Part shown: positions 9,479 through 54,630 of the stretch, in pieces
How the letters are laid out: the number at the start of each line of letters is the position of its first letter
Numbering within the stretch: the first letter of the stretch is position 1
Assembly (NCBI GenBank): GCA_964552775.1
Contig: CAZKIH010000011.1
Coordinates: 15,206 to 79,205 of the forward strand
DNA: 64,000 nt
DNA from: an uncultured Ignavibacteria bacterium
GTDB taxonomy: Bacteria; Zixibacteria; MSB-5A5; CAIYYT01
Direction: 5' to 3'
Notes under the pieces: model-generated
Told to the model about the DNA's origin: nothing
The model's input: the letters and a program-made list of their open reading frames with translations, nothing else
Database searches by the model: none
Made by a program: the position numbers and the translations under genes

Positions 9479-9518
9479 GTCGCCATAGAAAATTGAGCCT
9501 CCTCTTCATGAGGAAGAC

Positions 9519-9554
9519 AACGGACGGACTACAAAGTCTGTCCGTTGCTTTTTG
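9519..9554 (+). terminator. Rho-independent terminator after nfu
   Basis: AACGGACGGAC / GTCTGTCCGTT stem (1 mismatch), 6-nt loop, followed by GCTTTTTG. Confidence 0.6.
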
Positions 9555-9800
9555 AGATGTGTCACATTGGAATGAAGCCTGTCGCAACCCGACATTGGGC
9601 TTAAGCTTAATGGAATGGTAGATTGCGACTGAATTCATATAGATGAGAGTGAATTAGATGTCGGTGTAAACTGACTGTCCTTCAACACCTTTCTGATTTG
9701 TATAATTTTCTTAAGATTCTCTTGACTTGTGAGTCGCCCAAAAGATATATTCAGACTCGGAAGTCGCTGGTAGATAATGTGTTAACAATCTGTTAACATC

Positions 9801-10030
9801 TTGTGGATAACAACAAGGACATCTCAGCATTGCGTAGGAGCTCTTCGTAGTTCACTACTGGTTCGGTACCCAAATCGCCGATGTCCACCAAAGAATCATT
9901 AAGGGCTGCGACGGGGCTAATGTTGTATTCGGGCGTAACTCAGAATTTCTAAGGAAATATTTCGGATGACCAACCTCCTCACCGATTCTCGCGTCGGTCG
10001 CGAGCATGAACAATCTTTTTCTTATTCACA
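9801..10030. promoter_or_regulatory. dnaA promoter region with DnaA boxes
   Basis: Perfect TTATCCACA (reverse-complement TGTGGATAA) at 9802-9810. TTATTCACA at 10021-10029. Duplicated GTTAACA motif at 9781-9799. Confidence 0.55.
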
Positions 10031-10045
10031 GTTTACGGGGTAACC

Positions 10046-11419
10046 ATGCAGGAACAAATCAATGCTCTATGGGACAGGTGTCTCTCCAGCTTGTCCAAGC
10101 GCGTGAACAAGCCCTCATTCTTCACGTGGCTCAAGCCAATTCGAGTGGAATTCGTCGACGGCAATTGCTTCAACATACTCGTTCCAAATAATTTCGCGGC
10201 TCATTGGATTTCCGAGCGATATCGCCAGGCAATTAGTGAAGCGCTGGCCGAAGTCTCTGAACAGTCGTGGAATTTCGATTTCAAGATCCAGAAAGCCCCG
10301 GTGCAGGTTGAGATGTTTCCGGGCGAACCGGAGGAGGACCAACCGGCGATCATCGTCAGTGGCAATGGAAGCGGACACAACGGCCACCCAGCCCCAAAGC
10401 TGAATCCACGCTACTTATTTGAGAGCTTTGTCGTTGGTGATTCAAATCAATTCGCCTATGCTGCCTGTGAGGCTGTCTCTGAAGCCCCCGGAGAAAACCG
10501 TTATAACCCTCTCTTCATTTACGGCGGTGTCGGTCTCGGCAAGACTCACTTGGTGCAGGCGATCGGAAATGCCGTCTGCCAATCCAGTCCAAAGCTCCGC
10601 GTCATGTATGTTTCCAGCGAAAACTTCACGAACGAGTTCATTCGTTCCTTGGCCACCAAATCCGTTCACGAGTTTGCCAATCGCTATCGCACGGCTGACC
10701 TCCTTCTGTTGGATGACATTCAGTTCTTCACTGGCAAAGAATCAACCCAAGAGCAGTTCTTTCACACCTTCAATGCCCTGCATCAGGAAGGCAAGCAAAT
10801 CGTCCTGACCGCAGATCGTCCCCCGAAGGACATCCTTGGTCTCGAGGAAAGATTATTGTCGCGATTCAGCTGGGGACTGGTAGCCGATATTCAACCTCCG
10901 TCACTCGAAACCCGGGTAGCAATTCTGCAGAAGAAAGCCGAGAGTGATGGTGTCACCGTTCCCAATGACGTACTCACCTATATTGCCGATTCGATCACAT
11001 CAAATGTCCGTGAGCTTGAAGGCGCTTTGGTAAGACTCGTCGCCTATGCCTCCCTGCGCAAAAAAGAATTAACGATGTTGTTAGCCCAGGACGTCCTCAA
11101 AGACTCCATTCGCTCAAAGTCGAAGCCGGTGACCATTGAACAAATCCAGAAGGAAGTAGCGTCCTATTTCAAGATTTCTGAAGAGATGTTGAAGTCAAAA
11201 AAGAAGACTCAGGAAATTGTTACGGCACGTCAGGTGGCCATGTATCTTTGCAGAACACTAACAAGTTCATCTCTCAAACTGATTGGCATCAACTTTGGAA
11301 ATCGCGATCATTCGACTGTTATCCATGCCTGCCAACAAGTGCAGGACAATATGAAATCCTCAATGGATTTCAAATTGCAGATTGATCAACTCATCAACTT
11401 GACATGTAGTCACAAGTAG
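10046..11419 (+). CDS. dnaA: Chromosomal replication initiator DnaA
   Basis: AAA+ Walker A GGVGLGKTHL, LLLDDIQF, and the C-terminal DnaA-box-binding domain (ARQVAMYLCR...). Confidence 0.97.
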   Translation: MQEQINALWDRCLSSLSKRVNKPSFFTWLKPIRVEFVDGNCFNILVPNNFAAHWISERYRQAISEALAEVSEQSWNFDFKIQKAPVQVEMFPGEPEEDQPAIIVSGNGSGHNGHPAPKLNPRYLFESFVVGDSNQFAYAACEAVSEAPGENRYNPLFIYGGVGLGKTHLVQAIGNAVCQSSPKLRVMYVSSENFTNEFIRSLATKSVHEFANRYRTADLLLLDDIQFFTGKESTQEQFFHTFNALHQEGKQIVLTADRPPKDILGLEERLLSRFSWGLVADIQPPSLETRVAILQKKAESDGVTVPNDVLTYIADSITSNVRELEGALVRLVAYASLRKKELTMLLAQDVLKDSIRSKSKPVTIEQIQKEVASYFKISEEMLKSKKKTQEIVTARQVAMYLCRTLTSSSLKLIGINFGNRDHSTVIHACQQVQDNMKSSMDFKLQIDQLINLTCSHK

Positions 11420-11654
11420 GTGTATAACACTGTGGAAAAAATGACGGAAAAGAATTACTTCACAATCAATCCAAGTTTTCCATGTACACCAGTGTTGTTG
11501 TCAACACCACAGCAAACTCGCATGTTGTTCCATGACAAGAATATCCCTTTACAAAAAAACTTCTCCACACTACTATTATGACTATTATTCTTAGATTAAC
11601 TTAAGTTTATAACAAGAGTGCGGCGGCAATTGTGAATACTGAGGAAGCAACAAA
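11420..11654. promoter_or_regulatory. dnaA-dnaN intergenic region: candidate oriC / DNA unwinding element
   Basis: DnaA-box-like 9-mers TGTGGAAAA (11431-39), TTTTCCATG (11476-84), TTCTCCACA (11561-69). AT-rich tract 11541-11610. Confidence 0.4.
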
Positions 11655-12764
11655 ATGAAATTCACTTTAACAACTGACAAAATCCAATCAGCTCTAAGCG
11701 CGGTAATGAGTGCTGTACCGACTAAATCAACTTTGCCTATCCTTGGTAATATTCTTATGGAAGCTGATGGCAAATCTTTGAGCCTATCTGCAACTGATTT
11801 GGAGATTTCAATCACGACGTCGTTGGAAGTTAAGGCTGCCAAAAAGGGATCAGTTGCCATTCCGGCTAAGACATTTGCCGATATTATCAACGCACTTCCT
11901 CAGACTGAAATCGAAATTGAATCAGTTAATAACCGCATTGAAATGCGCTTTGGCACCGGTGATTACAAAATCTCCGGAATGTCCGCCGATGAATTTCCCA
12001 AACTTCCCGAATACGATGCTAAAAAAGAAATCCGCATTCCCGCTGATGTCGTCCGCAACTTGATTGCCAAGACCGCCTATTCGGTCTCAACCGATGAGAC
12101 TCGCCCAGCACTCAATGGCATTCTTTGGCAGACCAATGGGGAGCGGATGCGCATGGTGGCCACCGATGGTCATCGTTTGTCGCGCGCCGAGGCCGACAAC
12201 ACCAAATTGCAGGGTTTGCATGGCGATGTTATCGTCCCACCCAGAGCATTCAATCTGATCAACAAACTGGCAAGTGAGAGTGTTAGCGAGGTCGGCGTTG
12301 TATTTGGTGAAAACACCCTTGTGTTCATCTGTGGTAATAACACGATCAGCACGCGCATCATCGAAGGTCCGTACCCGAACACCGATCAGGTGATTCCTCG
12401 CAACAACGACAAGAATTTGATTGTCCCCAAAACGCTGCTGATGGAAACCCTCCGCCGCGTATCGATTCTCTCCAATTCACTGACCCGCCAGGTCAAGTTT
12501 ACCATCACGAACAATACCCTCGAACTCTCGGCAACCAATGTTGATCTTGGTGGTGAAGCTGTCGAGAAGATCCCTTGTCAGTATGATTCCGATGACTTGG
12601 AAATCGGCTACAATGCCCAGTATGTCCTCGATATCCTCAAACAGCTCGACGGCGACGAAGTGCGTTTCGCACTGTCGTCCTCAACCGCAGCCGCAGTTGT
12701 AACCTCCCTCGACGACGGCGCTGATTATCTCTGCCTGGTCATGCCACTCAGACTAGCGGACTAA
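11655..12764 (+). CDS. dnaN: DNA polymerase III beta sliding clamp DnaN
   Basis: 369 aa; canonical three-domain clamp sequence (MKFTLTTDKIQSALS..., ...LCLVMPLRL). Confidence 0.95.
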   Translation: MKFTLTTDKIQSALSAVMSAVPTKSTLPILGNILMEADGKSLSLSATDLEISITTSLEVKAAKKGSVAIPAKTFADIINALPQTEIEIESVNNRIEMRFGTGDYKISGMSADEFPKLPEYDAKKEIRIPADVVRNLIAKTAYSVSTDETRPALNGILWQTNGERMRMVATDGHRLSRAEADNTKLQGLHGDVIVPPRAFNLINKLASESVSEVGVVFGENTLVFICGNNTISTRIIEGPYPNTDQVIPRNNDKNLIVPKTLLMETLRRVSILSNSLTRQVKFTITNNTLELSATNVDLGGEAVEKIPCQYDSDDLEIGYNAQYVLDILKQLDGDEVRFALSSSTAAAVVTSLDDGADYLCLVMPLRLAD

Positions 12765-12823
12765 TGGGTGTGACGAATTCAGTCGCTCGTAGACGCTCGC
12801 TGAATGGCGAACTTAGTTGATTA

Positions 12824-13609
12824 GTAGGTCAGACATTCCTGTCTGACCAGCGACCGAAGGTCGCTCAGGGTTTGAGATGAATGATTCCCCTAGATTGAAG
12901 ATCGCGACCCGCCATTTGCCTCACTGGGAGTTGGAGGGATCCTTCTATTACATAACCTTCAGAGTCAAGCAGGGGACTCTGCATGATACGGAGGCATCTG
13001 TCCTAAGGAAACGTCTGCTTGAGGGGCACGGGAAGCACTGTCAGCTTATCGCATTCGTAATCATGCCCAATCATGTTCATCTCGTGCTGTCTCCTCGTCA
13101 GGGAATGACGCTTAGTCGGATACTCAAAGGAATAAAGGGAAAGTCCGCTCGCGAGATAAATACACTGCGAAAGACATCCGGTCCAGTATGGCAAGCCGAG
13201 TCATTTGATAGAATTATTCGGGACGAAACAGAGCTGACAGAAAAACTAAACTACATGCTCAATAATCCAGTAAGAGCGAGACTAACTGCAAATTCTTGGG
13301 AATATGAAGGTTGGTATTTCAATACCGACATTGCGGCTTCGCCGCAATGACAGGCAAGAATGTCTGTCCCACCAATACTGTTTCGCCGCGCTTTAGTAGG
13401 TCAGACATTCCTGTCTGACCAGCGACCGAAGGTCGCTCGAACATATTCAGCTTAGCGGGGTTTTGCGGGAAAGTGAGGAGTGGTACTTTAACTTTGATCT
13501 TGCGGCTTCGCCGCAATGACAGACAAGAATGTCTGTCCCACCAACGCACTGCAACGGACCTTCACAGTAGGTCAGACATTCCTGTCTGACCAGCGACCGA
13601 AGGTCGCTG
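12824..13609. mobile_element. RAYT/REP unit: REP-A, RAYT gene, then two tandem copies of (RAYT 3'-tail remnant + REP-A)
   Basis: Identical 42-nt REP-A GTAGGTCAGACATTCCTGTCTGACCAGCGACCGAAGGTCGCT at 12824-12865, 13396-13437 and 13568-13609. Duplicated tail TTGCGGCTTCGCCGCAATGACAG(G/A)CAAGAATGTCTGTCCCACCAA at 13335-13377 and 13501-13545. Confidence 0.8.
12877..13350 (+). CDS. REP-associated tyrosine transposase (RAYT, IS200/IS605-like Y1 transposase)
   Basis: HuH motif IMPNHVHLVL; catalytic Tyr region EKLNYMLNNPV. Flanked by REP hairpins. Confidence 0.85.
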   Translation: MNDSPRLKIATRHLPHWELEGSFYYITFRVKQGTLHDTEASVLRKRLLEGHGKHCQLIAFVIMPNHVHLVLSPRQGMTLSRILKGIKGKSAREINTLRKTSGPVWQAESFDRIIRDETELTEKLNYMLNNPVRARLTANSWEYEGWYFNTDIAASPQ

Positions 13610-22067: not shown

Positions 22068-22217
22068 ATGAAAAGAACATATCAGCCTTCGAAGCGGAAA
22101 CGGAAGAACGATCACGGCTTCCGCGAGAGAATGAAGACCAAGGACGGCCGCGCCGTCTTGTCCAGAAGACGCCGCAAAGGCAGAAAAAAACTGACGGTTT
22201 CAGACGAGAGAAAATAG
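22068..22217 (+). CDS. rpmH: 50S ribosomal protein L34
   Basis: 49-aa [52 protein letters not shown]. Absent from the ORF track because it is shorter than 60 aa. Confidence 0.9.
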
Positions 22218-22305
22218 CTTTGGTAAGGGTTGTCGTCTGTCTGATGGCACTCTTATCAGGCGGACGATTCGTTCCGGTGACAAGACCGAAAGCGAGCATC
22301 TGAGC

Positions 22306-22542
22306 ATGCATTGCTTTCCCACACCCGGTATTGCCAGTCGCTGGTGTTTCCGCATTCCTCGTCGACTCGGCAACGCACCAAGTCGCAACCGGGTTCGCAG
22401 ACTACTGCGAGAGTTTGTTCGCACGCACAAGAACCTGTGGCCCGCAAATTCTGCTGTTGTACTGACGGCGAACCTCACTGCAGTCGATCTGAGTTATCAT
22501 CGCGTTTCAGAACAGTTGGAGCGGTTGCTCGTTCATGAATAA
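22306..22542 (+). CDS. rnpA: RNase P protein component RnpA (ATG-initiated portion; true start probably upstream, non-canonical)
   Basis: RnpA core RIPRRLGNAPSRNRVRRLLREFVR. The frame is open back to 22135 with no ATG/GTG/TTG. Confidence 0.7.
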   Translation: MHCFPTPGIASRWCFRIPRRLGNAPSRNRVRRLLREFVRTHKNLWPANSAVVLTANLTAVDLSYHRVSEQLERLLVHE

Positions 22543-22756
22543 ACTGTTCGGTACCGTTTCGGCGGCACTTGTCCGCGCCTATCAGCTTGTACTATCCCCC
22601 TTTCTGCCAAGAGCTTGTCGATTCTATCCATCTTGTTCAGAATATTCACTTCAAGCCTTCAAAAAATATGGATTCATGAAAGGCACATCAATGACCTTTC
22701 GCCGAATCGGCCGTTGCCACCCGTTTCATCCGGGCGGATTCGACCCTGTGGAGTAA
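22535..22756 (+). CDS. yidD: Membrane protein insertion efficiency factor YidD
   Basis: 73 aa with the YidD signature YQLVLSPFL...CRFYPSCSEY. Overlaps the rnpA 3' end. Confidence 0.9.
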   Translation: MNKLFGTVSAALVRAYQLVLSPFLPRACRFYPSCSEYSLQAFKKYGFMKGTSMTFRRIGRCHPFHPGGFDPVE

Positions 22757-22762
22757 TCGCAA

Positions 22763-24430
22763 ATGTTTGATCGCAATACACTCATCGCCATCATCCTGAT
22801 CTTCGTCATCTTTGTCGGCTGGTCGTTCATCTACCAACCAAGTCAGGCGCCGCCACCCTCGACAGCTGACGGTATTACTCAGGCCGATTCGGTTAAGCGT
22901 GTAATCCCGGATACCGCAGACTCAACCCTTGCGATACCGGGAATGGCACAGCCGACTCTTGATACTTTGGCCGTAGCCGCCGACACGATTCCCGAGAAGG
23001 TGATCACGGTTGAGACGGATTGTTTCAAAGCTGTCTTGACCAACAAGGGCGCAGGAATCACGAAGCTCACTTTCAAGAACTATCATTACACTGAAGGCAA
23101 ACAGGTTGAGATGCTGCCCTCCGAAGCCCAACCGGTCCCGACAATCCTCTCTCCAATAAGTGGGTTTACCGATCACGCGCTCAACTACAGCACTTCCGAC
23201 AAGAGTCTGGAACTAACGAAGGGTTCTTCCAGCCAGTCGATAACTTTCACAGCACAGGTTCCTGGTCGCGGTGAAATCGTCAAGCAATTCACTTTCTATC
23301 CCGATAAATATGATTTTGACATCGTGCTCAAGATCAACGGCGTTCCTCAGCTTGGCCTCGACAAGGAATACGTATTGGCGTGGTTGCCGGGGATCCCGCC
23401 GTCAGAGAAAAATCTTACCGATGATTTCAGCCATTATAAGGCTGCTGCCTACATGGCCGGCGAATTACAAAAGCACGATTCATTCGAAAACGGAAAGCTC
23501 ATCAAAGATGTGACCGGAAGTGCCGAATGGGTCGGCTCATGCTCGAAATATTTCGCGTACGCCTTCATTCCGGATAGCCGAACCAGCAACGGAGCCTATT
23601 TCCGTGGTACTGAGAAGAGTCGCGTTGGTACCGATGGCAGCTACAATGAACGTGACATTTCTACCGGAATTCTCATGCCATCCGGTGCTAATGTCACGAT
23701 TGAGAACAAATTCAAGGTGTTTGTCGGACCTCTCGATTACAAACTGCTCAAGAATTACAACGCCAATCTCGAGGACTTTATCGACTGGGGTTGGAAAATC
23801 ATCCGGCCGTTCTCGCATGCAATCTACTGGATCACTTATCAGCTTCATAAGGTCATCCCCAACTATGGATTGGTAATTATTTTTGTCTCGATCCTGATCA
23901 AACTTGTGACTTTTCCGCTGACACGCAAATCGCTGAAGTCGATGGCGGCGATGAAGAACCTCGCTCCGAAAATGGAAGAGCTGAAGGCCAAGTATAAGAG
24001 CGATCCGCAGAAGTTGAACCAGTCGATCATGAAGCTCTACAAGGAAGAGGGTGTCAATCCATTCAGTGGTTGCCTGCTTCTGCTCCCGCAGATGCCCCTG
24101 CTTTATGGTCTCTACAATGTCTTCCGTTCGACGATCGAGTTTCGCCAGGCCTATTTCATATCGCTATGGCCGGATCTATCGCAGCCCGATCCATTCCCAT
24201 ATATCATGCCGATCATCATGACAGTGGCAATGTTCTTCCAACAAAAGATGTCTGTCACCGATCCTAAACAGAAGATGCTCGTCTACTTGATGCCGGTGAT
24301 TTTCTTCTTCTTCATGAAGGGACTTCCGGTCGGCCTGGTGCTGTATTGGACTATGTATTCTGTGCTGTCGATAGGCGAACAGCTGCTTATTAAGCGTCCT
24401 GACGCTGCGCTTAATCCTCAAGTCAAATGA
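22763..24430 (+). CDS. yidC: Membrane protein insertase YidC
   Basis: N-terminal TM, large periplasmic domain, C-terminal 5-TM core (PLTRKS..., MKLYKEEGVNP). Confidence 0.95.
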   Translation: MFDRNTLIAIILIFVIFVGWSFIYQPSQAPPPSTADGITQADSVKRVIPDTADSTLAIPGMAQPTLDTLAVAADTIPEKVITVETDCFKAVLTNKGAGITKLTFKNYHYTEGKQVEMLPSEAQPVPTILSPISGFTDHALNYSTSDKSLELTKGSSSQSITFTAQVPGRGEIVKQFTFYPDKYDFDIVLKINGVPQLGLDKEYVLAWLPGIPPSEKNLTDDFSHYKAAAYMAGELQKHDSFENGKLIKDVTGSAEWVGSCSKYFAYAFIPDSRTSNGAYFRGTEKSRVGTDGSYNERDISTGILMPSGANVTIENKFKVFVGPLDYKLLKNYNANLEDFIDWGWKIIRPFSHAIYWITYQLHKVIPNYGLVIIFVSILIKLVTFPLTRKSLKSMAAMKNLAPKMEELKAKYKSDPQKLNQSIMKLYKEEGVNPFSGCLLLLPQMPLLYGLYNVFRSTIEFRQAYFISLWPDLSQPDPFPYIMPIIMTVAMFFQQKMSVTDPKQKMLVYLMPVIFFFFMKGLPVGLVLYWTMYSVLSIGEQLLIKRPDAALNPQVK

Positions 24431-25818
24431 AGCTCCCCAACAGCGACGACACGATCGTCGCTATCTCTACACCGCCCGGATATGGCGGTATCGGCGTTGT
24501 GCGCATCTCTGGTAGTGCCGCCTTCATCGCCGCGAACCAACTGATTCACGGGGACCATGATTTCGGCTCCGTAAAATCACATACCGTCCATCACTGCTTC
24601 ATCAAAGGATCTCAAAAACGCGTGTTTACCGACGAAGTACTGGTCACGGTCTTTGTTGCACCGAATAGCTACACCGGTGAAAATGTCATAGAAATAGCAG
24701 CGCACGGCAATCCACAAATCCTGAAGCAAATTGTCGAGATGGCGTTGAATGTCGATTGCCGCCAAGCCGCTCCCGGAGAGTTTACGCTTCGCGCCTTTCA
24801 GAATGGTAGAATTGATCTGCTCCAGGCTGAATCCGTGGCTGACTTGATCGCCGCCGAGGGAACTGCATTCCAGCAGGCGGCAATGTACCAACTTTCTGGA
24901 AGACTCTCTGAGTTTATCGGAAACCTCAGAAACGAACTGGTCGAAATCGGCGCATTGTTCGAAGCCTATACTGACTTTCCCGACGAAGAAATTCCACAGC
25001 AGCAAAAAAACGAGCTGCTCCACAAGATCGACACGATCAATGGATCGTTGGTCCGTCTCAGTGAGAGCTACAGGCAAGGCGAAATCCTGCGATCAGGGCT
25101 TCAGATTCCAATCGTGGGTCCGCCAAATGCCGGTAAATCCTCCCTCTTCAATGCCATCCTCGCAGAGGAACGGTCGATCGTCACGGAGATTCCCGGCACT
25201 ACGCGCGATACAATAGCCGAGAAGGTAGAGATCGGCGGAATTGTTGTGAGATTCGTCGATACGGCCGGGATGCGTGAAACAAGTGATAATATTGAGATTG
25301 CCGGAGTCCAGCGTTCGAAGCGCGAAATAGAAACTGCCGGCATCGTCGTGGCAGTGATCGATGCCACCAAGGCCACGGTGACGGAAGTTCGGGAATTTCT
25401 CTCCAAGCTTGGCAATAGGCAGATAATTCTCGCGCTCAACAAGATTGATCTGCTGACGGAATTTCAGATAGCGGACCTCGAATCTGAACTTCAAAACGCT
25501 TCGCCGCTACTGATCTCCGCCAGGGAATTGCGGGGCATAGACAAGCTGCTTTCACGTGTGGGTGAAATGATCTCATCGACTGCAGCTCCGTTGGGCGGCG
25601 ATTACAACATCATTACTAATCAAAGACATTTGCGAGCTGTGCTCTCAGCTCTCGACTCGCTGTCAAGCGTTCGTGAGAAGCTCGACGAGAATGAGAGCTT
25701 CGAATTATTGGCGTTTGATCTCCGCCAAGCTGTTGAGTTCCTCGAAGAAATCCTCGGCAAGGTTACGAATGACGACATCCTCGCCGAGATCTTTAGCCGG
25801 TTCTGCATCGGCAAGTAA
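24427..25818 (+). CDS. mnmE: tRNA modification GTPase MnmE (TrmE)
   Basis: G-domain GPPNAGKSSLFNA, DTAGMRE. C-terminal CIGK motif. Confidence 0.95.
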   Translation: MKLPNSDDTIVAISTPPGYGGIGVVRISGSAAFIAANQLIHGDHDFGSVKSHTVHHCFIKGSQKRVFTDEVLVTVFVAPNSYTGENVIEIAAHGNPQILKQIVEMALNVDCRQAAPGEFTLRAFQNGRIDLLQAESVADLIAAEGTAFQQAAMYQLSGRLSEFIGNLRNELVEIGALFEAYTDFPDEEIPQQQKNELLHKIDTINGSLVRLSESYRQGEILRSGLQIPIVGPPNAGKSSLFNAILAEERSIVTEIPGTTRDTIAEKVEIGGIVVRFVDTAGMRETSDNIEIAGVQRSKREIETAGIVVAVIDATKATVTEVREFLSKLGNRQIILALNKIDLLTEFQIADLESELQNASPLLISARELRGIDKLLSRVGEMISSTAAPLGGDYNIITNQRHLRAVLSALDSLSSVREKLDENESFELLAFDLRQAVEFLEEILGKVTNDDILAEIFSRFCIGK

Positions 25819-25861
25819 CTCATTCCAATAATCTGAATAGAATCAGCCAGAGCTACCGCCT

Positions 25862-27745
25862 CTACAAGCACGCCGCGCACGGAGCCGCTCCGCCCGTGAA
25901 AATATAGTTGATGAGATACACGACATCGGAAATTGTGATAAGGCCGCTGCAATCAGCATCGCCTGCGACAATTGGAGTCGGTGCGGCTCCTCCTGCAAAG
26001 ATATAATTGATCAGGTAAACGGCATCGGAGATAGTCACCATCTCACTGTGGTCGGCATCTCCACAAATGAACGGCGGATCGCTAATGAGAATAGCGAGGT
26101 ATACTGTATCTGACCTTGGCGGATTGTGAGAATCAAATACAGCAATCTCAAAACCGTAATCCCCATTCTGCGTAGGAATCCCCGTGATCGAACCGATTGA
26201 TCCGCCGTTGAATTTACATCCCTGTGGCAATTCGCCGCTGAGGTGCAGCCAATTGAGCGGCGGCTCACCTCCTACGGCTTTCATCTCATAGAGATAGGGC
26301 ACACCACGCTGACCTGCTGGCGGAAAATTCTGATAGCAATGAATATTGCCATCACAGTGATCGCCGATGCCGTCACCATTTTCGTCCGGTTGAGAAGGAT
26401 TGGAGACAATCGGACAATTGTCATCCAAATCGGATGTGCCATCGCCGTCGCAATCGGGTTTCAACCTGGTCACACTGATCGTGTCTCGAAACGGAGCGCC
26501 GTTGTCTTTGACTTCCACAATGATCAGATTGGATCCGATTGACAATGTTGTGCTGCCGCTAAACAAACCATCGATTACCGGCAAGGTCGTCCCATTAAGC
26601 GTTACTTCCGTGACTGCCGGATTTCCGGAGACACCTGTAACAATCACTTCATCAGTTAACACCACAGAACCTTGTGGTGGAGAAGTAGTTACAGCATTAT
26701 CAGAATTGCAGACTCGGTTCATCACATCAGGCACAGCCGCTATGCTGGATCCAGGGATAACCATCAATTCATAGGGATGACAATAGTCCATATAGCCAAC
26801 GTATCCCGTCGGAACAGATCGGAAGTCATCGAATGCCGGGAACTCGCTGCCGATTGAGGATGGATCCATGTACAGCCATCTGTGTGCGAGCCAAATCACT
26901 GTATACATGTGCTGACTGTACCGCAACTGCCACCGCGTTTCGGCGATTGCGACCCGATTTCTTGAGAGTCCGACTTTGTATAGCATCGTCGTTAGAATGT
27001 GTGCCCTGCTCATGCAGGTTCCCCAAACAATGAACCCGTAGATATCAAACGTTGCAGCGATCGCCTCAATCGATGGGTAGCCATCGTCATAGTTCATCAT
27101 GAACGTCCATGCCGCCTGAACAGCAGGATCGCCGGGATAAGAGTTGATATAGCGGGCATTCGTCTGCAGCCATTCCCATACTAAAGAGCATTTTATCCAG
27201 ATCAACGAATCATCTTCTGTCTGCCCGGATCCGGTACCGATCGAGGCCAACAGCGAATCTATCAACTCGTTATCAGCATCAATGTTGGGGAAGTCAAAAT
27301 CTGTTACGGTTCCGTTTCCTCTACGGCTGTATCCTCCGATAAGCGAATAATTCACGAGTCCTTGATTCAAGGTCTCGACGAGGAACCCTCCCACCGGCTT
27401 GCTAAGATAGATATCAATATTTGCATTTGGAGTTTGCATGAGCATCGTGACCGACTCATAGCCCGCAGCCGATGCGAGAACCGTGTAGTCAGTCAGATCG
27501 GGAAGAACAGGGGACTCAAAGTACCCTGTCGAATCACAGAATACTGAAGTTCCATTTGGCATCAGCCCATTCCCAATAATCAACTCGGCGCACGGAATTG
27601 GGAATCCGATAGCGGCGTCGTAAACACGCCCGGTGAACTTCCCAGCAAGCGCAACGCTCGAAACAAATAGCGTTGTGTACGCCAGTAACGCCACCTTCAT
27701 CAAGAATCTCATTCTGAATATCATTGCAAATGTCTCCAACCGCAA
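25862..27745 (-). CDS. Secreted multidomain protein: CarbopepD_reg-like N-terminus, transglutaminase-like core, thrombospondin type 3 (TSP3) Ca-binding repeats, two C-terminal dockerin-like repeats
   Basis: Signal peptide MKVALLAYTTLFVSSVALA. Transglutaminase-like core GTCMSRAHILTTMLYKVGL. TSP3 repeats DCDGDGTSDLDDNCP...DENGDGIGDHCD. Dockerin-like repeats GDADHSEMVTISDAVYLINYIF and GDADCSGLITISDVVYLINYIF. Confidence 0.65.
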   Translation of the reverse strand: MRLETFAMIFRMRFLMKVALLAYTTLFVSSVALAGKFTGRVYDAAIGFPIPCAELIIGNGLMPNGTSVFCDSTGYFESPVLPDLTDYTVLASAAGYESVTMLMQTPNANIDIYLSKPVGGFLVETLNQGLVNYSLIGGYSRRGNGTVTDFDFPNIDADNELIDSLLASIGTGSGQTEDDSLIWIKCSLVWEWLQTNARYINSYPGDPAVQAAWTFMMNYDDGYPSIEAIAATFDIYGFIVWGTCMSRAHILTTMLYKVGLSRNRVAIAETRWQLRYSQHMYTVIWLAHRWLYMDPSSIGSEFPAFDDFRSVPTGYVGYMDYCHPYELMVIPGSSIAAVPDVMNRVCNSDNAVTTSPPQGSVVLTDEVIVTGVSGNPAVTEVTLNGTTLPVIDGLFSGSTTLSIGSNLIIVEVKDNGAPFRDTISVTRLKPDCDGDGTSDLDDNCPIVSNPSQPDENGDGIGDHCDGNIHCYQNFPPAGQRGVPYLYEMKAVGGEPPLNWLHLSGELPQGCKFNGGSIGSITGIPTQNGDYGFEIAVFDSHNPPRSDTVYLAILISDPPFICGDADHSEMVTISDAVYLINYIFAGGAAPTPIVAGDADCSGLITISDVVYLINYIFTGGAAPCAACL

Positions 27746-28004
27746 TCCGCCAGCCGTGGATGTATCCGCGCCAGCCAGGGTCTACTCCCTTGCCAATTTC
27801 GTGTAGTATTTAGTCCATTATAATCTACAATTTCGAATTGTCAAGGCAGTCCCGAAGCATGGTGCTCGAATTGCAGTTACTCTGAACAACCGGACTTAAG
27901 GGAGTAATTACATTGAAGTAGGACATTGCCAATAGCCCATTGGTGAGAGACTAATTGAGGTTTATGTACTTTGGAGATATGAAGTCGAATCAACGGCATC
28001 TGAG

Positions 28005-28020
28005 CGTTTCACGTGAAACG
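28005..28020. promoter_or_regulatory. parS-like centromere site CGTTTCACGTGAAACG
   Basis: Matches the central 14-mer GTTTCACGTGAAAC of the parS consensus TGTTTCACGTGAAACA. Lies in the mnmG upstream region. Confidence 0.6.
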
Positions 28021-28075
28021 GCCCAACGATCTTGCTTGATTTTGACGGCATCGCCGCGTATCATCTTCTGCTATC

Positions 28076-29938
28076 ATGAGGGATTTTGATGTAATTGTCA
28101 TTGGTGGAGGCCATGCCGGAATCGAAGCTGCCGCAGCGACTGCCCGCATGGGTGCTTCTACGGCTATAATCAGTGGTGAACTCTCCAAGATCGGTGAAAT
28201 GTCATGCAATCCGGCAATCGGCGGCGTCGGAAAAGGACAACTAGTCCGCGAAATTGATGCTCTCGGTGGACTAATGGGGCACATCACCGATCAAGCCGGA
28301 ATTCACTTCCGAACGCTGAACAAAAGCAAAGGACCTGCTGTCTGGTCTTCGCGGGCTCAATGTGATCGCAGGCTCTATCGAGAGTTCGCTCAGGAGGCAC
28401 TCGCACGACTCAACGGTCTCCATCTCATTGCCGGGATGGTTGTTGGCGTAATCGCAGAAGGTCGGGAATTCAACCGGATCGTCCTCAAGGACGGTCGAGA
28501 CATCTCAGCAAGGGCGTGTGTTCTCGCCTCAGGCACATTTCTTAATGGCCTCATTCACATCGGCGAAGAGCAGATTCCTGCCGGTCGAGTCAATGAGGCG
28601 CCGGCGCTGCATCTCTCGGAATCATTACAAGCTCTGGGCTTTCAGACAGGTAGGCTGAAAACCGGCACACCGCCACGCCTCGAGGGCGAGACGATCGACT
28701 TCAGCAAAATGGAGCCACAGCCCGGCGATGATGATTTCTACCCATTTTCGCTGAGAACACGTGAGTCTGTCAAGAATAGAGCCTTGTGCCATATAACCTA
28801 CACCTCGACGAAGACTCACGCAATTGTCGATGCCAACCTGCATCGCTCTGCAATGTTCTCTGGGAGTATCCAAGGTATCGGACCTCGTTATTGCCCGTCC
28901 ATCGAAGATAAAGTCCATCGGTTCCGTGACAAGGACCGCCATCAATTGTTTATTGAACCTGAGGGCCTTGACACTACTGAAATCTATATAAACGGACTTT
29001 CGACTTCGTTACCGTCGGATGTCCAACTCGATATTCTCCATTCTATTTCCGGCCTTGAAGATGTTGTCATGAAACGCCCCGGGTATGCTATCGAATATGA
29101 CTTCTTTCCTGCCTACCAGATAAAGCCAACGCTCGAGACACGACTAATCGACAATCTGTACTTCTGCGGACAGATCAACGGTACATCTGGATATGAAGAA
29201 GCCGCCGCACAGGGATTAATGGCAGGCATCAATGCAGTTGCTAAGCTTAGGGATAATCCCCAAATAGTATTGGACAGAGCGCAGGCCTATATCGGTGTGA
29301 TGATTGACGATTTGGTCACCCGAGTACCAATGGAGCCTTATCGAATGTTCACGTCGAGAGCTGAATACCGACTTGCACTGCGCGAGGATAACGCCGCCGA
29401 TCGATTGATCAACATTGGAAGAGGCCTCGGGCTGGTCAACAATGAAATGATGGATAGCTTCTTGTCTGGCCGGGACGCCATCGATCAGGAGAGTCGGCGC
29501 CTTCACCAGACATCAGTCCCAGCAGCCTGGGTTGATACGACCGCCAACGGCGACAAACTTCCCATGGGCATCCTGCTCAAGCGGCCAAACGTGACTTATG
29601 ATAACTTCCGGGGCATCGATGAGACTTGCGCTGGATTCCCGAAGAGACTTTCAGAAAAGCTGGAAATCTCAATCAAATACGCTGGTTACATGGAAAAACA
29701 ACAGCGCGAGATTGACCGCTTCCGGCAACTTGAGTCTCGAAAAATACCCGAGAGTTTGGATATTTCCGCGCTTTCAGGTCTGAAGAGAGAAGCGGTAGCT
29801 ACATTGGAAAAATATCACCCAGTCAATCTGGGTCAAGCCTCGCGATTAAACGGAATCACATATTCTGATATCACAGTGCTGATGATTCACTTAAAGCGCC
29901 ACTATGCTGACTCTGTTTCACGTGAAACACCCCAATGA
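28076..29938 (+). CDS. mnmG: tRNA uridine 5-carboxymethylaminomethyl modification enzyme MnmG (GidA)
   Basis: FAD motif VIVIGGGHAGIEAA; full-length GidA. Confidence 0.97.
   Translation: MRDFDVIVIGGGHAGIEAAAATARMGASTAIISGELSKIGEMSCNPAIGGVGKGQLVREIDALGGLMGHITDQAGIHFRTLNKSKGPAVWSSRAQCDRRLYREFAQEALARLNGLHLIAGMVVGVIAEGREFNRIVLKDGRDISARACVLASGTFLNGLIHIGEEQIPAGRVNEAPALHLSESLQALGFQTGRLKTGTPPRLEGETIDFSKMEPQPGDDDFYPFSLRTRESVKNRALCHITYTSTKTHAIVDANLHRSAMFSGSIQGIGPRYCPSIEDKVHRFRDKDRHQLFIEPEGLDTTEIYINGLSTSLPSDVQLDILHSISGLEDVVMKRPGYAIEYDFFPAYQIKPTLETRLIDNLYFCGQINGTSGYEEAAAQGLMAGINAVAKLRDNPQIVLDRAQAYIGVMIDDLVTRVPMEPYRMFTSRAEYRLALREDNAADRLINIGRGLGLVNNEMMDSFLSGRDAIDQESRRLHQTSVPAAWVDTTANGDKLPMGILLKRPNVTYDNFRGIDETCAGFPKRLSEKLEISIKYAGYMEKQQREIDRFRQLESRKIPESLDISALSGLKREAVATLEKYHPVNLGQASRLNGITYSDITVLMIHLKRHYADSVSRETPQ
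29914..29929. promoter_or_regulatory. Perfect parS site TGTTTCACGTGAAACA embedded in the last codons of mnmG
   Basis: Exact 16/16 match to the parS consensus. Encodes ...SVSRETP... of MnmG, 6 nt before the rsmG start. Confidence 0.7.
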
Positions 29939-30558
29939 CCCTTGAGCCGGTCTGGAAAAACCTCCTCGTCGAGTCCTTGCCATCACGCATTGCGGATCCT
30001 GAATCGTTGATCAATCGATTTCGAGGTTATCTCCTCGAAGTTAACGTGCACATCAATCTGATTGCGCGCACCGACACAAGCAGCATCATCGACGGGCTGA
30101 TCTTTGACTCCTTATCAATGCTGAGACATATCAACTACTCTGGCGGCGCATTGGTATTGGACATTGGGTCCGGCGCCGGATTCCCCTGGGTCCTCCACAA
30201 GTTGATGCGGCCTGACCTCCGCATCGTAAGTGTCGATTCGAATCGCCGCAAAATAGAATTCCAGCGGAATGTGTGCCGACTGATAGGCCTCGAAAACTGC
30301 AGATTAGTTGCCGACCGAATTGAGAGCCTTGCCCCCCTCGGTGCAGACTTCGCCATAGCAAAAGCGGTTGGTACAATCGACCAAATCAGCCATCTCGCAG
30401 CACCCCATCTCAAGCAGGGAGCTTTCCTCGTCCTTCCCAGAGGAATTTCTGAACCACACTTTCAGCCAATTCCCGGTTTCCTTCTGAAAAGCTCGTTCGA
30501 GTACCAAAGTTCGCCTAATGGCCGGTTCTCCAGCCTGGTTACTCTCGAGAAATCGTAA
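29935..30558 (+). CDS. rsmG: 16S rRNA (guanine527-N7)-methyltransferase RsmG (GidB)
   Basis: SAM-binding motif LDIGSGAGFP. Confidence 0.9.
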   Translation: MTLEPVWKNLLVESLPSRIADPESLINRFRGYLLEVNVHINLIARTDTSSIIDGLIFDSLSMLRHINYSGGALVLDIGSGAGFPWVLHKLMRPDLRIVSVDSNRRKIEFQRNVCRLIGLENCRLVADRIESLAPLGADFAIAKAVGTIDQISHLAAPHLKQGAFLVLPRGISEPHFQPIPGFLLKSSFEYQSSPNGRFSSLVTLEKS

Positions 30559-30652
30559 AGTCTATCCGTTCTTTGACAAGTTTTTATTGCGAAATGTCTG
30601 TATAATCATAAATTAGCAATCGCGAACGGACTCGTGTAATCAGGAGGGATTT

Positions 30653-31411
30653 CTGGCAAAAATATTCGCCGTGGTCAATCAGAAGGGCGGCGTCGGTAAG
30701 ACGACCACTGCCATCAATCTTTCCGCCTGTATCGCAATCGCTGAAAAGTCAACCCTACTCGTCGACCTGGATCCCCAGTCAAATGCTACTTCCGGAATGG
30801 GTGTCGACAAAAGAAATCTCGCCGTCTCCATTTATGACGTCCTGAACGACGACAAGAGTGTCGAGGAAGTCATTCTCAAGACCAACATCAAGTACCTGGA
30901 CTTAATACCGGCCAATATCAACCTGGTGGCGGCTGAGCTTGAGTTGGTTGAACGCAATGGTCGTGAGACAATCCTGCGAGATAAGTTGGCGGCAATTAAG
31001 GACTACTATGACTACATTGTGATCGATTGTCCACCATCATTAGGACTTCTAACATTGAATGCGCTGGTTGCCGCCGACCACCTCCTGATCCCCATTCAGG
31101 CCGAATACTACGCGCTCGAGGGGCTCGGTCAGCTGATCAGTACGATTGGATTGGTGCAACAAAATCTCAATCGCAATTTGACGATAGGTGGAATTCTCAT
31201 CACAATGTTCGACCCGCGCCTGAACCTTGCTCGTCAGGTCGTGGAAGAAACTCGGAATCATTTCAAGGACAAAGTCTTTGCTACGATAATCAACCGCAAT
31301 GTCCGCCTTGGCGAGGCGCCGTCTTTCGGCAAGCCGATCATCCTGTATGATATCGGTTCAACCGGAGCTGAGAACTACATCTCGCTGACGGAGGAGGTCT
31401 TACGGATATGA
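30653..31411 (+). CDS. parA: Chromosome partitioning ATPase ParA/Soj (start uncertain; likely non-ATG)
   Basis: Deviant Walker A NQKGGVGKTTTAINLSA. Strong SD AGGAGGG at 30642-30648; in-frame CTG at 30653 and GTG at 30671 are the start candidates. Confidence 0.85.
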   Translation: MAKIFAVVNQKGGVGKTTTAINLSACIAIAEKSTLLVDLDPQSNATSGMGVDKRNLAVSIYDVLNDDKSVEEVILKTNIKYLDLIPANINLVAAELELVERNGRETILRDKLAAIKDYYDYIVIDCPPSLGLLTLNALVAADHLLIPIQAEYYALEGLGQLISTIGLVQQNLNRNLTIGGILITMFDPRLNLARQVVEETRNHFKDKVFATIINRNVRLGEAPSFGKPIILYDIGSTGAENYISLTEEVLRI

Positions 31412-32292
31412 AAAAACCGGCACTCGGAAAAGGTCTGTCGGCGCTGATTCCTACCGCTCTATACGCGCCGGCGGTACCGGAGATGCATCCTGAGCCTGAA
31501 CACGGCGACAGGTTTGTGATGGTCTCGCTTGACAAGTTGATCGCCAATCCAAATCAGCCGCGCAAGTATTTCGCGGAGGAGAAATTGAGTCAGCTTGCAG
31601 ATTCCATCGCCCAAAAAGGAGTGCTGCAGCCGATCCTCGTGCGCCAGATCAACGGTAAATTCCAGATCGTCGCCGGTGAACGGCGCTTTCGTGCTGCCGA
31701 ACGACTCGGCTTGGCGGAAGTCCCGGCTCGGATCGTCGAGCACTTGGATGATCGCGACATGCTCGAGATTTCCATTGTCGAAAACCTGCAGCGCGATGAT
31801 CTCAATCCTCTGGAATTGGCGGAGGGCTATCAACGCCTCGTAACGGAATTCAGCTTGACCCAGGTCGAGCTTTCCACCCGAGTTGGTAAGGACCGCTCTT
31901 CGGTCGCCAACACGTTACGGTTGCTGAATCTCCCAAATGAAGTGAAAGCAAGAATAGCTACGGGTGAACTGAAGGAAGGTCACGCGCGCGCGATCCTCGC
32001 CTTGGAGACTGAAAAAGAGCAGTTGGAGCTTGCGCGTAAAATCATCGAAGAAGATTTGACCGTCCGGGCAATCGAAGAGATCATCTACGGCGGGCAGCGC
32101 AAGAAGCGGGGACGCAGCTTGAAACTGAAAACTCGCCCAATTGAAATTTCACAAGCCGAAACTGCGCTCAAACGCAGACTTGGTACCGCGGTGACAATTC
32201 AGCGCGGTCTGAAACGCGGGAAAATCACCATTCAATTCTATGGCGATTCCGATCTGACGCGCATCCTCGAACTCCTGGGAGTTGAACTCTAA
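31408..32292 (+). CDS. parB: Chromosome partitioning protein ParB/Spo0J
   Basis: ParB box GERRFRAAE; HTH; C-terminal dimerisation domain. Confidence 0.95.
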   Translation: MKKPALGKGLSALIPTALYAPAVPEMHPEPEHGDRFVMVSLDKLIANPNQPRKYFAEEKLSQLADSIAQKGVLQPILVRQINGKFQIVAGERRFRAAERLGLAEVPARIVEHLDDRDMLEISIVENLQRDDLNPLELAEGYQRLVTEFSLTQVELSTRVGKDRSSVANTLRLLNLPNEVKARIATGELKEGHARAILALETEKEQLELARKIIEEDLTVRAIEEIIYGGQRKKRGRSLKLKTRPIEISQAETALKRRLGTAVTIQRGLKRGKITIQFYGDSDLTRILELLGVEL

Positions 32293-33511: not shown

Positions 33512-33678
33512 TCAAGTTGTAACAGTTTGCCTGTGTGGATAACGTGAGCAACAATGTGGAAATTGTTGTAACGTATTGGAAGATAGCATAATGCGGTCTG
33601 GACTTAACGATACGATTTAAGGGTTATCCACAAGAGCTTGATTTAAGAATGTTTAGATTTCTGTAAGGCGGATTCACT
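33512..33678. promoter_or_regulatory. Intergenic DnaA-box cluster (alternative oriC candidate / DnaA-regulated promoter)
   Basis: Perfect TGTGGATAA at 33534-33542. TGTGGAAAT at 33555-33563. Perfect TTATCCACA at 33624-33632. AT-rich. Confidence 0.45.
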
Positions 33679-52672: not shown

Positions 52673-54625
<1,953 letters not shown>

Positions 54626-54630
54626 TTATC

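What the first reader, a model, noticed from the sequence alone, without database searches (positions are those of the whole stretch)
9780..11654. dnaA flanked by DnaA boxes; AT-rich dnaA-dnaN spacer as oriC candidate
A perfect TTATCCACA box sits 235 nt upstream of dnaA (9802-9810) and a TTATTCACA box adjacent to its start. The 235-nt dnaA-dnaN spacer holds three degenerate boxes and a ~70-nt AT-rich stretch typical of a DNA unwinding element.
Basis: partly seen in the sequence, partly recalled or inferred. Interest (0 to 1): 0.5.

Follow-up and report, generated by a model that had tools for sequence, protein, structure and literature searches.

The report
Conserved origin module without a skew switch
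The gap between dnaA and dnaN carries a textbook, phylum-wide conserved replication-origin unwinding module, but in this genome and its closest relatives the strand-composition signature of replication does not switch there, so it may no longer be where replication starts.

Summary

The spacer has the anatomy of a 'basal unwinding system' (BUS) oriC: a rightward DnaA box TTCTCCACA, directly followed by DnaA-trios (CTA CTA TTA TGA CTA TTA TTC TTA), an AT-rich stretch, and a leftward box next to the dnaN ribosome-binding site. The organism is a Zixibacterium. A box-end plus three or more xTA trios occurs in 46 of 73 related spacers (0.9 expected), always about 88 nt before dnaN. In 56 distant relatives the third-codon GC skew flips from negative to positive exactly between dnaA and dnaN.

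Strand bias is uniform across the window (r = -0.07 on both sides). In the nearest relatives it is uniform with the opposite sign, at every stretch sampled from -39 to +58 kb around dnaA.

The perfect upstream box belongs to a conserved three-site array just downstream of the dnaA promoter, which fits autoregulation. The TTATTCACA box is not conserved.

Verdict: an ancestral oriC module of a known kind. Its activity as the origin in this lineage is unconfirmed and probably lost or minor.

The parts
9518..9547 (+). Intrinsic terminator of the upstream nfuA-like gene. It marks the left limit of the dnaA control region.
   Evidence: 13-bp stem followed by a T run. The hairpin is conserved in L087 and L089.
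9722..9751 (+). dnaA promoter-like site, TTGACT-18-TATATT.
   Evidence: Best sigma-70-type match in the region, 10 of 12 positions. Both hexamers are invariant in 7 relatives.
9780..9810 (-). Three sites at 11-bp phasing, just downstream of the promoter: TGTTAACAA (9780-88), TGTTAACAT (9791-99) and the perfect box TGTGGATAA (9802-10). Probable DnaA operator for dnaA autoregulation.
   Evidence: 11-nt direct repeat. The whole array is invariant in 7 relatives, where the third site is TGTGGAAAA. Binding and regulation are inferred.
10022..10030 (+). TTATTCACA, a 1-mismatch box in the dnaA leader and small upstream ORF. Probably a chance match.
   Evidence: Present in the window but replaced by TACTACACA or CTTTACACA in relatives.
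10046..11419 (+). dnaA, the replication initiator.
   Evidence: Pfam match. Aligns end to end with B. subtilis DnaA of the BUS cryo-EM structure 8BTG, E 4e-136. Walker A/B, arginine finger R264, and ssDNA/trio contacts E183, N187, I190, K222 and E223 are conserved. R202, E228 and N196 are not.
11431..11439 (-). Distal DnaA box TTTTCCACA (1 mismatch) at the start of the spacer.
   Evidence: Conserved as CTGTGGAAAA in the closest relatives.
11498..11506 (+). Degenerate box TTGTCAACA (2 mismatches). Relatives have TT(A/G)TCCACA at this position.
11548..11576 (+). Promoter-like TTTACA-17-TACTAT overlapping the proximal box and the first trios. Possible dnaN promoter.
   Evidence: 9 of 12 positions. 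TTTACA and TACTATTA are invariant in 11 sequences with 67-100% DnaA identity.
11561..11569 (+). Proximal, rightward-facing DnaA box TTCTCCACA of the unwinding module.
   Evidence: It is the only site in the 64-kb window where a box (at most 2 mismatches) is followed within 4 nt by three or more xTA triplets. An orthologous box lies 78-112 nt before dnaN in 67 of 73 relatives.
11570..11593 (-). DnaA-trio array. Top strand: CTA CTA TTA TGA CTA TTA TTC TTA. Bottom strand 3'-GAT GAT AAT ACT GAT AAT AAG AAT-5'. Seven of 8 triplets have the central A, and 6 of 8 match 3'-[G/A]AT-5'.
   Evidence: Definition of trios from PMC8287927 and PMC7561715. The C. difficile oriC2 trio CACCTACTACTATTACTACTATGA is nearly the same string. 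Phylum-wide enrichment shown.
11569..11618 (.). AT-rich, least stable duplex. Candidate DNA unwinding element.
   Evidence: Lowest nearest-neighbour stability of any 50-mer in the window. Lies within the most AT-rich 60-mer.
11631..11639 (-). Leftward-facing box GTATTCACA (2 mismatches), 15 nt before the dnaN ATG, closing the AT-rich stretch.
   Evidence: AATTGTGAA is conserved in the closest relatives. Distant relatives have TGTGGA(A/T)A-type boxes at the same place.
11655..12764 (+). dnaN, the beta sliding clamp.
   Evidence: Pfam match to all three domains.

Best explanation
The dnaA-dnaN spacer is the Zixibacterial chromosomal origin module of the basal-unwinding-system (BUS) type.

Proposed ancestral mechanism: DnaA docks on the rightward box TTCTCCACA, helped by weaker boxes upstream. 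It extends as an ATP-bound filament onto the adjoining trinucleotide repeats of the bottom strand. This opens the very unstable AT-rich stretch that follows. A leftward box sits at the far side, next to dnaN.

In most of the phylum this element marks where the two replication forks diverge. In the lineage of this window the module is intact and under strong constraint, but forks apparently pass through it in one direction. It is therefore most likely no longer the main start site.

The main origin would lie outside the window, to its right under the usual G-rich-leading-strand rule. The retained module probably serves as the DnaA-controlled promoter/operator region of dnaN, possibly also as a silent or minor origin.

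The perfect box upstream of dnaA is a separate device. It belongs to a three-site, helically phased array just downstream of the dnaA promoter, which fits autoregulation of dnaA.

Shown: anatomy, conservation, the phylum-level skew switch, and the absence of a switch here. Inferred: DnaA binding, unwinding, promoter use, and the location of the real origin.
For: Anatomy: box, trios and the least stable duplex are contiguous at 11561-11618, and this combination is unique in the window.

Conservation: the pattern [C/A]ACA, 0-4 nt, then three or more xTA occurs on the dnaA strand in 46 of 73 spacers. Shuffles give 0.9 (maximum 4) and the other strand gives 7. The median distance to the dnaN ATG is 88 nt, IQR 86-90. 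Distant relatives have a tandem box pair with a GC-rich gap.

Initiator: DnaA keeps the arginine finger and the adenine-contacting N187.

Ancestral origin: in 56 distant loci the GC3 skew is -0.058 left and +0.055 right of the spacer, with 50 of 56 positive differences (p 2e-9). dnaN minus dnaA is +0.110. Loci with canonical dnaA-dnaN-recF show a step of +0.130, positive in 39 of 41.

Not the fork-divergence point here: in the window, a uniform bias r = -0.074 beats a coding-only model by 27 log-likelihood units, and the free fit gives -0.064 left and -0.076 right. Syntenic relatives give L089 +0.24 / +0.33 and L087 +0.08 / +0.06 for left / right, and L095 a uniform +0.27. In the NODE_3 relative the bias is positive in both gene orientations at every stretch sampled between -39 kb and +58 kb; about 35 kb to the right of the dnaA start was not sampled.

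Orthologues have opposite GC3 skew in different lineages (dnaA -0.16 against +0.21, dnaN -0.27 against +0.14) while third positions are near saturation (41-50% identity). These are therefore long-standing states.

The subclade has also split dnaN from recF-gyrB (0 of 11 adjacent against 41 of 56). Its upstream box cluster is reduced (1.0 against 2.77 boxes).

Promoter reading: TTTACA-17-TACTAT is invariant across 11 sequences.
Against: An intact oriC with 3-4 good boxes, as in the close relatives, would be expected to fire wherever it sits.

No alternative origin was found. The only other box cluster in the window (33.5 kb) also shows no skew switch, and no BUS-like site occurs in any fetched relative locus outside the spacer.

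Conservation of the whole trio and AT-rich segment is more than a promoter needs.

The window covers only 10 kb to the left of dnaA, and its 106.7-kb source contig could not be retrieved.

Several relatives have almost no strand bias (L083, L090), so skew amplitude varies within the clade.
Confidence: 0.5

Rival explanations
1. The spacer is the active, bidirectional chromosomal origin of this organism. The uniform strand bias would be produced by something other than fork direction.
For: A complete BUS anatomy that is unique in the window. Conservation across the phylum and within the subclade. The full set of origin-proximal genes lies in the window: dnaA, dnaN, rpmH-yidC-mnmE, gidAB, parAB, recF, dciA, gyrBA. 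The skew switches at this element in most of the phylum. An oriC is cis-acting and should fire where it sits.
Against: Strand bias has the same sign on both sides of the spacer in the window and in at least five syntenic relatives. It affects genes of both orientations, so it is not codon usage. Inversions cannot produce this pattern while keeping dnaA-spacer-dnaN intact. Skew is a valid reporter in this same phylum.
Confidence: 0.3
2. Replication does start in the spacer but is effectively unidirectional, with one fork arrested next to the origin. The direction would differ between lineages.
For: This would reconcile an intact origin module with uniform strand bias over roughly 60-100 kb.
Against: I know of no precedent for bacterial chromosomes. 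The module has the same orientation relative to dnaA in lineages with opposite bias, so the direction would have to be set by an unknown external barrier. No such element was seen.
Confidence: 0.07
3. The element is only a DnaA-repressed dnaN promoter with an AT-rich leader, and was never an origin. The resemblance to trios comes from AT-rich -10-like sequence.
For: TTTACA-17-TACTAT is invariant in the clade, with a box between the two hexamers.
Against: Distant relatives lack a properly spaced -35 element yet keep 4-9 in-phase xTA triplets, a tandem box pair and a GC-rich gap. The strand and position specificity is far above chance. The skew switches exactly here in 56 genomes.
Confidence: 0.05
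4. The real origin in the window is the intergenic region 33512-33678, downstream of parB-M23-bactofilin, which holds two perfect DnaA boxes.
For: It is the highest-scoring box cluster in the window and lies next to the gidAB-parAB genes.
Against: It has no trios, no strongly AT-rich element and no promoter-like site. An origin-type switch at 33.6 kb fits far worse than uniform bias. In relatives the bias has the same sign at dnaA and at alaS, on either side of this region.
Confidence: 0.03

Closest known systems
Bacillus subtilis oriC incC region: basal unwinding system with DnaA-boxes 6/7, DnaA-trios and an AT-rich element, between dnaA and dnaN
   Same: Same location in the dnaA-dnaN spacer. 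Co-oriented box(es) face a run of trinucleotide repeats with a central A on the DnaA-bound strand, followed by an unstable AT-rich stretch. Further boxes lie upstream in the spacer and upstream of dnaA. DnaA aligns end to end with the protein of structure 8BTG.
   Different: In this window only one proximal box survives, and it abuts the trios with no GC-rich gap. Distant Zixibacteria have a tandem pair offset by 8 bp and a 0-4 nt GC gap. A leftward box flanks the far side of the AT-rich stretch. The DnaA residues that read the trio G in B. subtilis (R202, E228) are A and Q here. No skew switch occurs at the element in this lineage.
Clostridioides difficile oriC2 (dnaA-dnaN spacer) of a bipartite origin
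   Same: The trio string is nearly identical: CACCTACTACTATTACTACTATGA there, CACACTACTATTATGACTATTATT here. In both it lies upstream of the unwound AT-rich region, and DnaA-box clusters lie on both sides of dnaA.
   Different: Unwinding at C. difficile oriC2 was shown with P1 nuclease, while nothing is shown here. The upstream cluster in this window is reduced to a promoter-proximal three-site array.
Escherichia coli-type arrangement, in which the dnaA-dnaN-recF-gyrB genes lie tens of kb from oriC (from my own knowledge, not tested here)
   Same: dnaA and dnaN would be replicated passively by a fork coming from an origin elsewhere, as the strand bias suggests here.
   Different: As I recall it, E. 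coli has no origin-like spacer between dnaA and dnaN. Here a complete module is retained.
DnaA-autoregulated dnaA promoters (E. coli, B. subtilis; general knowledge)
   Same: A sigma-70-type promoter followed by DnaA box(es), here in a phased array.
   Different: Two of the three sites are TGTTAACA palindromes with 3 mismatches to the consensus. Whether DnaA binds them is unknown.

Membership tests
BUS-type oriC (Richardson 2016/2019; Pelliciari 2021) | A DnaA box (at most 2 mismatches) within 16 bp of the trios and co-oriented with them | tested here: met
   TTCTCCACA at 11561-69 (1 mismatch) abuts the trios. Criteria taken from PMC8287927.
BUS-type oriC (Richardson 2016/2019; Pelliciari 2021) | At least three consecutive DnaA-trios, 3'-NAN-5' and preferably 3'-GAT-5' | tested here: met
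   Bottom strand reads GAT GAT AAT, then ACT, then GAT AAT AAG AAT. Enriched and positioned across 73 spacers.
BUS-type oriC (Richardson 2016/2019; Pelliciari 2021) | A tandem pair of proximal boxes (the most frequent form, not obligatory) | tested here: not met
   The position of the upstream partner reads AAAAAAACT in the window. The pair is present in distant relatives. Single-box modules are accepted by the published definition.
BUS-type oriC (Richardson 2016/2019; Pelliciari 2021) | [quoted passage not shown] | tested here: met
   Least stable 50-mer and most AT-rich 60-mer of the window.
BUS-type oriC (Richardson 2016/2019; Pelliciari 2021) | ATP-DnaA-dependent strand separation that requires both box and trios | not testable with these tools
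   Needs purified DnaA and a strand-separation assay. Only conservation of R264, N187, I190 and K222/E223 could be checked.
Functional chromosomal origin (Ori-Finder/DoriC-type criteria) | Strand-composition (GC-skew) switch at the site | tested here: not met
   Uniform bias in the window and in syntenic relatives. The feature is met in 56 distant relatives.
Functional chromosomal origin (Ori-Finder/DoriC-type criteria) | A cluster of at least 3 DnaA boxes (at most 1 mismatch) close together | tested here: inconclusive
   The spacer of the window has two boxes with at most 1 mismatch plus three with 2 mismatches. Close relatives have 3-4.
Functional chromosomal origin (Ori-Finder/DoriC-type criteria) | Adjacency to dnaA or other origin marker genes | tested here: met
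   Lies between dnaA and dnaN. gidAB, parAB, rpmH-yidC, recF and gyrBA are all within 45 kb.
Bipartite origin (B. subtilis, H. pylori, C. difficile type) | A second DnaA-box cluster upstream of dnaA | tested here: inconclusive
   Distant Zixibacteria average 2.77 boxes in the 600 nt upstream of dnaA, against 0.17 in a coding control. The subclade averages 1.0. The window has one conserved box within a promoter-proximal array.
DnaA-autoregulated dnaA promoter | A promoter with DnaA box(es) overlapping it or just downstream | tested here: met
   TTGACT-18-TATATT at 9722-51, with the three-site array at 9780-9810, all invariant in 7 relatives. Regulation itself was not tested.

The most novel reading that the evidence does not exclude
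A subclade of Zixibacteria keeps a complete, strongly constrained DnaA-box/DnaA-trio/AT-rich origin module between dnaA and dnaN, yet it has been replicated through in one direction for a long evolutionary time. In lineages with identical gene order, the strand bias is uniform and of opposite sign at every stretch sampled over about 60-100 kb. This would be a natural case of an ancestral oriC that is dormant, demoted or exapted as a dnaN control region after the working origin moved. Less likely, it would be an origin that fires unidirectionally.
Probability: 0.5. Interest if true: 0.6.

Novelty: new member of a known kind. Interest (0 to 1): 0.4.

Why it matters
As an origin in the dnaA-dnaN spacer the element is ordinary. 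It extends the box/trio/AT-rich unwinding module to an uncultured phylum (Zixibacteria, FCB group) and gives a clean comparative validation: the skew switch maps between dnaA and dnaN in 56 genomes.

The less ordinary part is the mismatch in this lineage. If a fully conserved origin module really sits inside a unidirectionally replicated region, it offers a natural test of two questions. What keeps an origin silent? What happens to an ancestral oriC after origin relocation?

It is also a warning against calling oriC in metagenome-assembled genomes from dnaA adjacency and DnaA boxes alone.

Tried and rejected
1. Retrieving the source contig. A 100%-identical YdjM-like protein sits on a 106,711-nt NCBI contig, but only 1-3 kb Logan contigs could be fetched. 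The skew beyond the window could therefore not be read.

2. Walking outward in relatives to find the skew switch. The bias stayed uniform out to -39 kb and +58 kb in the NODE_3 relative, and no switch was found.

3. Codon usage as the cause of the uniform skew. Rejected, because genes on opposite strands have opposite coding-strand skews.

4. A recent inversion as the cause. Rejected, because orthologues have re-equilibrated, and an inversion that flips only one flank would break the dnaA-spacer-dnaN order.

5. The 33.5-kb box cluster as the origin. It has no trios, no unstable element and no switch. A metagenome scan for ParB loci to test its conservation returned only one short close relative.

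6. Rfam. Nothing reached gathering score in the window. A sub-threshold AsdA hit inside dnaA reflects coding conservation. No tRNA or rRNA genes were available to use as orientation markers.

7. A literature search for a described Zixibacterial origin found nothing.

8. The anchored position matrix of the proximal box is partly circular, because sites were chosen by similarity to the consensus. The regex test without that prior is the one to rely on.
Full report
**What is there.** The window comes from a member of Candidatus Zixiibacteriota. The DnaA protein finds 505 relatives in genome contigs, nearly all labelled Zixibacteria or mislabelled FCB-group MAGs, and the best shares 94% amino-acid identity. 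dnaA (10046-11419) and dnaN (11655-12764) are confirmed by Pfam.

Boxes with at most one mismatch are about twice as frequent in the window as in shuffles: 20 against 10.45, with 0 of 100 shuffles reaching 20. Four of them fall inside the 1.9 kb of the finding. The AT-rich stretch is real and extreme. 11553-11612 is the most AT-rich 60-mer of the 64 kb, and 11569-11618 is the least stable 50-bp duplex, more than 4 sd below the mean.

**Anatomy of the spacer.** The rightward-facing box TTCTCCACA (11561-69) is followed without a gap by CTA CTA TTA TGA CTA TTA TTC TTA (11570-93). On the bottom strand this reads 3'-GAT GAT AAT ACT GAT AAT AAG AAT-5'. That is a run of DnaA-trios as defined for the basal unwinding system (BUS): a box within 16 bp of at least three 3'-NAN-5' repeats, preferably 3'-GAT-5', followed by an unstable AT-rich element (PMC8287927, PMC6669920, PMC10721633).

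The string is almost the same as the trio reported for C. difficile oriC2, 5'-CACCTACTACTATTACTACTATGA-3' (PMC7561715). The AT-rich element follows. A leftward-facing 2-mismatch box (11631-39) sits 15 nt before the dnaN ATG. In the whole window, on both strands, this is the only place where a box with at most 2 mismatches is followed within 4 nt by three or more xTA triplets. The expectation is 0.21.

**Conservation.** dnaA-dnaN synteny with a 186-343-nt spacer holds in all relatives that include both genes. A test that uses no DnaA-box consensus looked for [C/A]ACA, 0-4 nt, then three or more xTA triplets.
- It matches 46 of 73 spacers on the dnaA strand, against 0.9 in dinucleotide shuffles (maximum 4) and 7 on the other strand.
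- The match lies at a fixed distance from the dnaN ATG: median 88 nt, IQR 86-90.

Distant relatives show the full canonical layout: two tandem boxes offset by 8 bp, a 0-4-nt GC-rich gap, 4-9 in-phase trios (mostly TTA/CTA), a TATATA-rich stretch, and a leftward TGTGGAnA box before the dnaN ribosome-binding site. Among genomes whose third codon positions are near saturation (41-71% identity), the segment from CAAGAATATC through the trios is almost invariant.

The window's DnaA aligns end to end with the B. subtilis protein of the BUS cryo-EM structure (8BTG, E 4e-136). It keeps Walker A/B, the arginine finger (R264), and the ssDNA/trio contacts E183, N187, I190 and K222/E223. The two residues that read the trio guanine (R202, E228) are A and Q.

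**The upstream region.** The perfect box at 9802-9810 is the third of three sites spaced 11 bp apart: TGTTAACAA, TGTTAACAT, TGTGGATAA. They lie 30-60 nt downstream of the best promoter-like site of the region, TTGACT-18-TATATT at 9722-51. Promoter and array are invariant in seven relatives, where the third site is TGTGGAAAA. This is the layout of an autoregulated dnaA promoter rather than an unwinding region.

The TTATTCACA box next to the ATG is not conserved. Distant Zixibacteria carry on average 2.77 boxes with at most one mismatch in the 600 nt upstream of dnaA, against 0.17 in a coding control. The phylum therefore looks bipartite, like B. subtilis or C. difficile. The subclade of the window averages only 1.0.

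**The skew test: phylum level.** I measured G/C skew at third codon positions on the dnaA-sense strand, gene by gene. In 56 loci with DnaA less than 65% identical to the window:
- The left side averages -0.058 and the right side +0.055. The paired difference is +0.113, positive in 50 of 56 (p 2e-9). Gene orientation is the same on both sides, 76% and 80% plus-strand.
- dnaA resembles the left flank and dnaN the right flank. The difference is +0.110, positive in 46 of 56.
- Loci with the canonical dnaA-dnaN-recF order show +0.130, positive in 39 of 41.

In most Zixibacteria the forks therefore diverge between dnaA and dnaN. This validates both the module and the method.

**The skew test: this genome and its subclade.** In the window the cumulative GC skew falls from start to end with no minimum at 11.5 kb. 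A binomial fit over 55 genes prefers one uniform strand bias (r = -0.074, coding bias -0.069) over a coding-only model by 27 log-likelihood units. With separate left and right levels, it returns -0.064 and -0.076. An origin-type switch at 11.5 kb or at 33.6 kb fits much worse.

The nearest relatives have the same gene order: T6SS genes, kinase, FHA, ydjM, mrp, nfu, dnaA, dnaN, pta, pta and so on. Their bias is also uniform, but positive.
- L089 gives +0.24 left and +0.33 right. L087 gives +0.08 and +0.06.
- L095 gives +0.27.
- L002, L003 and L022 are alike.

Genes on opposite strands have opposite coding-strand skews, so this is a strand effect and not codon usage. The same orthologues differ by about 0.4 between lineages: dnaA -0.16 against +0.21, and dnaN -0.27 against +0.14.

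The alaS-recF-dciA-gyrB-gyrA group lies 36-50 kb to the right of dnaN on the opposite strand, both in the window and in relatives on the same contigs. It carries the same polarity as the dnaA region in each lineage. Walking left in the NODE_3 relative, the positive bias persisted to -39 kb. Together with the alaS locus this spans -39 to +58 kb, of which about 35 kb was not sampled.

Within the subclade, dnaN minus dnaA is -0.12, positive in 1 of 11, and none of the 11 genomes keeps recF next to dnaN.

**Interpretation.** Inversions that include an origin preserve the polarity around it. Inversions that exclude it cannot flip one flank while leaving dnaA-spacer-dnaN intact. The orthologues have also re-equilibrated. 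The simplest reading is that in this subclade forks have long passed through the spacer in one direction: leftward in the window's lineage and rightward in the L089/L004 lineages. The working origin would then lie outside the region I could see.

Against this, an intact module should fire. Close relatives have 3-4 good boxes. I also found no alternative origin. The 33.5-kb cluster of two perfect boxes has no trios, no unstable element, no promoter-like site and no switch.

The strict conservation of TTTACA-17-TACTAT over the box and first trios suggests one reason for retention: use as a DnaA-controlled dnaN promoter.

My probabilities are:
- about 0.5 that the module is an ancestral oriC no longer serving as the main origin here;
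- about 0.3 that it is still the active origin and the skew misleads for a reason I cannot name;
- about 0.07 for unidirectional firing;
- the remainder on the minor rivals.

That the element is an oriC-type BUS module by anatomy and ancestry I hold at about 0.85.

**Comparison and novelty.** By the sequence features that define it (box, trios, AT-rich element) the element is a member of the BUS-type oriC class. The biochemical feature is untestable here. The functional-origin criterion of a skew switch was tested and not met in this genome, although it is met in the phylum.

It is a new member of a known kind in an uncultured phylum, with three local peculiarities: a single proximal box abutting the trios, a flanking leftward box at the dnaN ribosome-binding site, and DnaA lacking the G-reading residues.

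The mismatch with strand composition is the only part a specialist would find surprising. It rests on MAG contigs and indirect inference. It can be settled cheaply by whole-contig skew and read-coverage profiles.

Noticed in passing
window 33512-33678: The intergenic region after parB-M23 peptidase-bactofilin holds two perfect TTATCCACA boxes in opposite orientation (33534-42 minus strand, 33624-32 plus strand) plus ATTTCCACA (33555-63). It is the top DnaA-box cluster of the window. It has no trios, no promoter-like site and no skew switch. Possibly a DnaA-titrating or regulatory site ahead of a membrane-protein/MoxR operon.
   Followed up: partly
window 12765-13350; L095 16779-18074: Directly after dnaN lie several GC-rich hairpins and an IS200-type Y1 transposase-like gene (12877-13350). 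A close relative has a different transposase (Transposase_mut) at the same junction. The 3' flank of dnaN looks like an insertion hotspot.
   Followed up: partly
window 9760-10045: dnaA appears to have a leader of about 290 nt. It contains conserved blocks, a perfect hairpin CTCGCG-N5-CGCGAG, and a conserved 25-codon ORF (9966-10043, ending ...QFTG) whose stop lies 2 nt before the dnaA ATG. This may be a leader peptide or an RNA structure controlling dnaA translation.
   Followed up: partly
window 22068-32292 and 49049-60495: The canonical origin gene set is rearranged. rpmH-rnpA-yidD-yidC-mnmE and gidA-gidB-parA-parB lie on the plus strand, downstream of dnaN. recF, dciA (54631-54921), gyrB, gyrA and alaS lie on the minus strand, convergent with dnaA-dnaN. 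In relative L090 alaS lies on the other side of dnaA. The presence of DciA implies a DciA-type helicase operator rather than DnaC/DnaI.
   Followed up: partly
whole window compared with L002, L003, L085, L089, L095, L097-L103: Lineages with identical gene order have strand bias of opposite sign and very different size at third codon positions: -0.07 here, +0.05 to +0.08 in L087, and +0.24 to +0.30 in several others. Other relatives (L083, L090) show almost none.
   Followed up: yes
window 433-6573: A type VI secretion gene set (TssC, TssB/VipA, and ClpV split into two ORFs of 357 and 473 aa in the window and all relatives), followed by a Ser/Thr kinase and an FHA protein, lies directly upstream of the ydjM-mrp-nfu-dnaA group.
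   Followed up: no
window 10520-10583 (minus strand): A sub-threshold Rfam match to AsdA, the Salmonella antisense RNA of dnaA mRNA (30 bits against a gathering score of 52). It lies over the Walker A coding region and most likely reflects conserved dnaA coding sequence, not an RNA gene.
   Followed up: no
window 9780-9799, and the upstream tandem-box position in L026, L033, L073: The palindrome TGTTAACA recurs where a DnaA box is expected: twice in the dnaA operator array, and as the upstream partner of the tandem pair in several distant origins. It may be a phylum-specific low-affinity DnaA site.
   Followed up: partly
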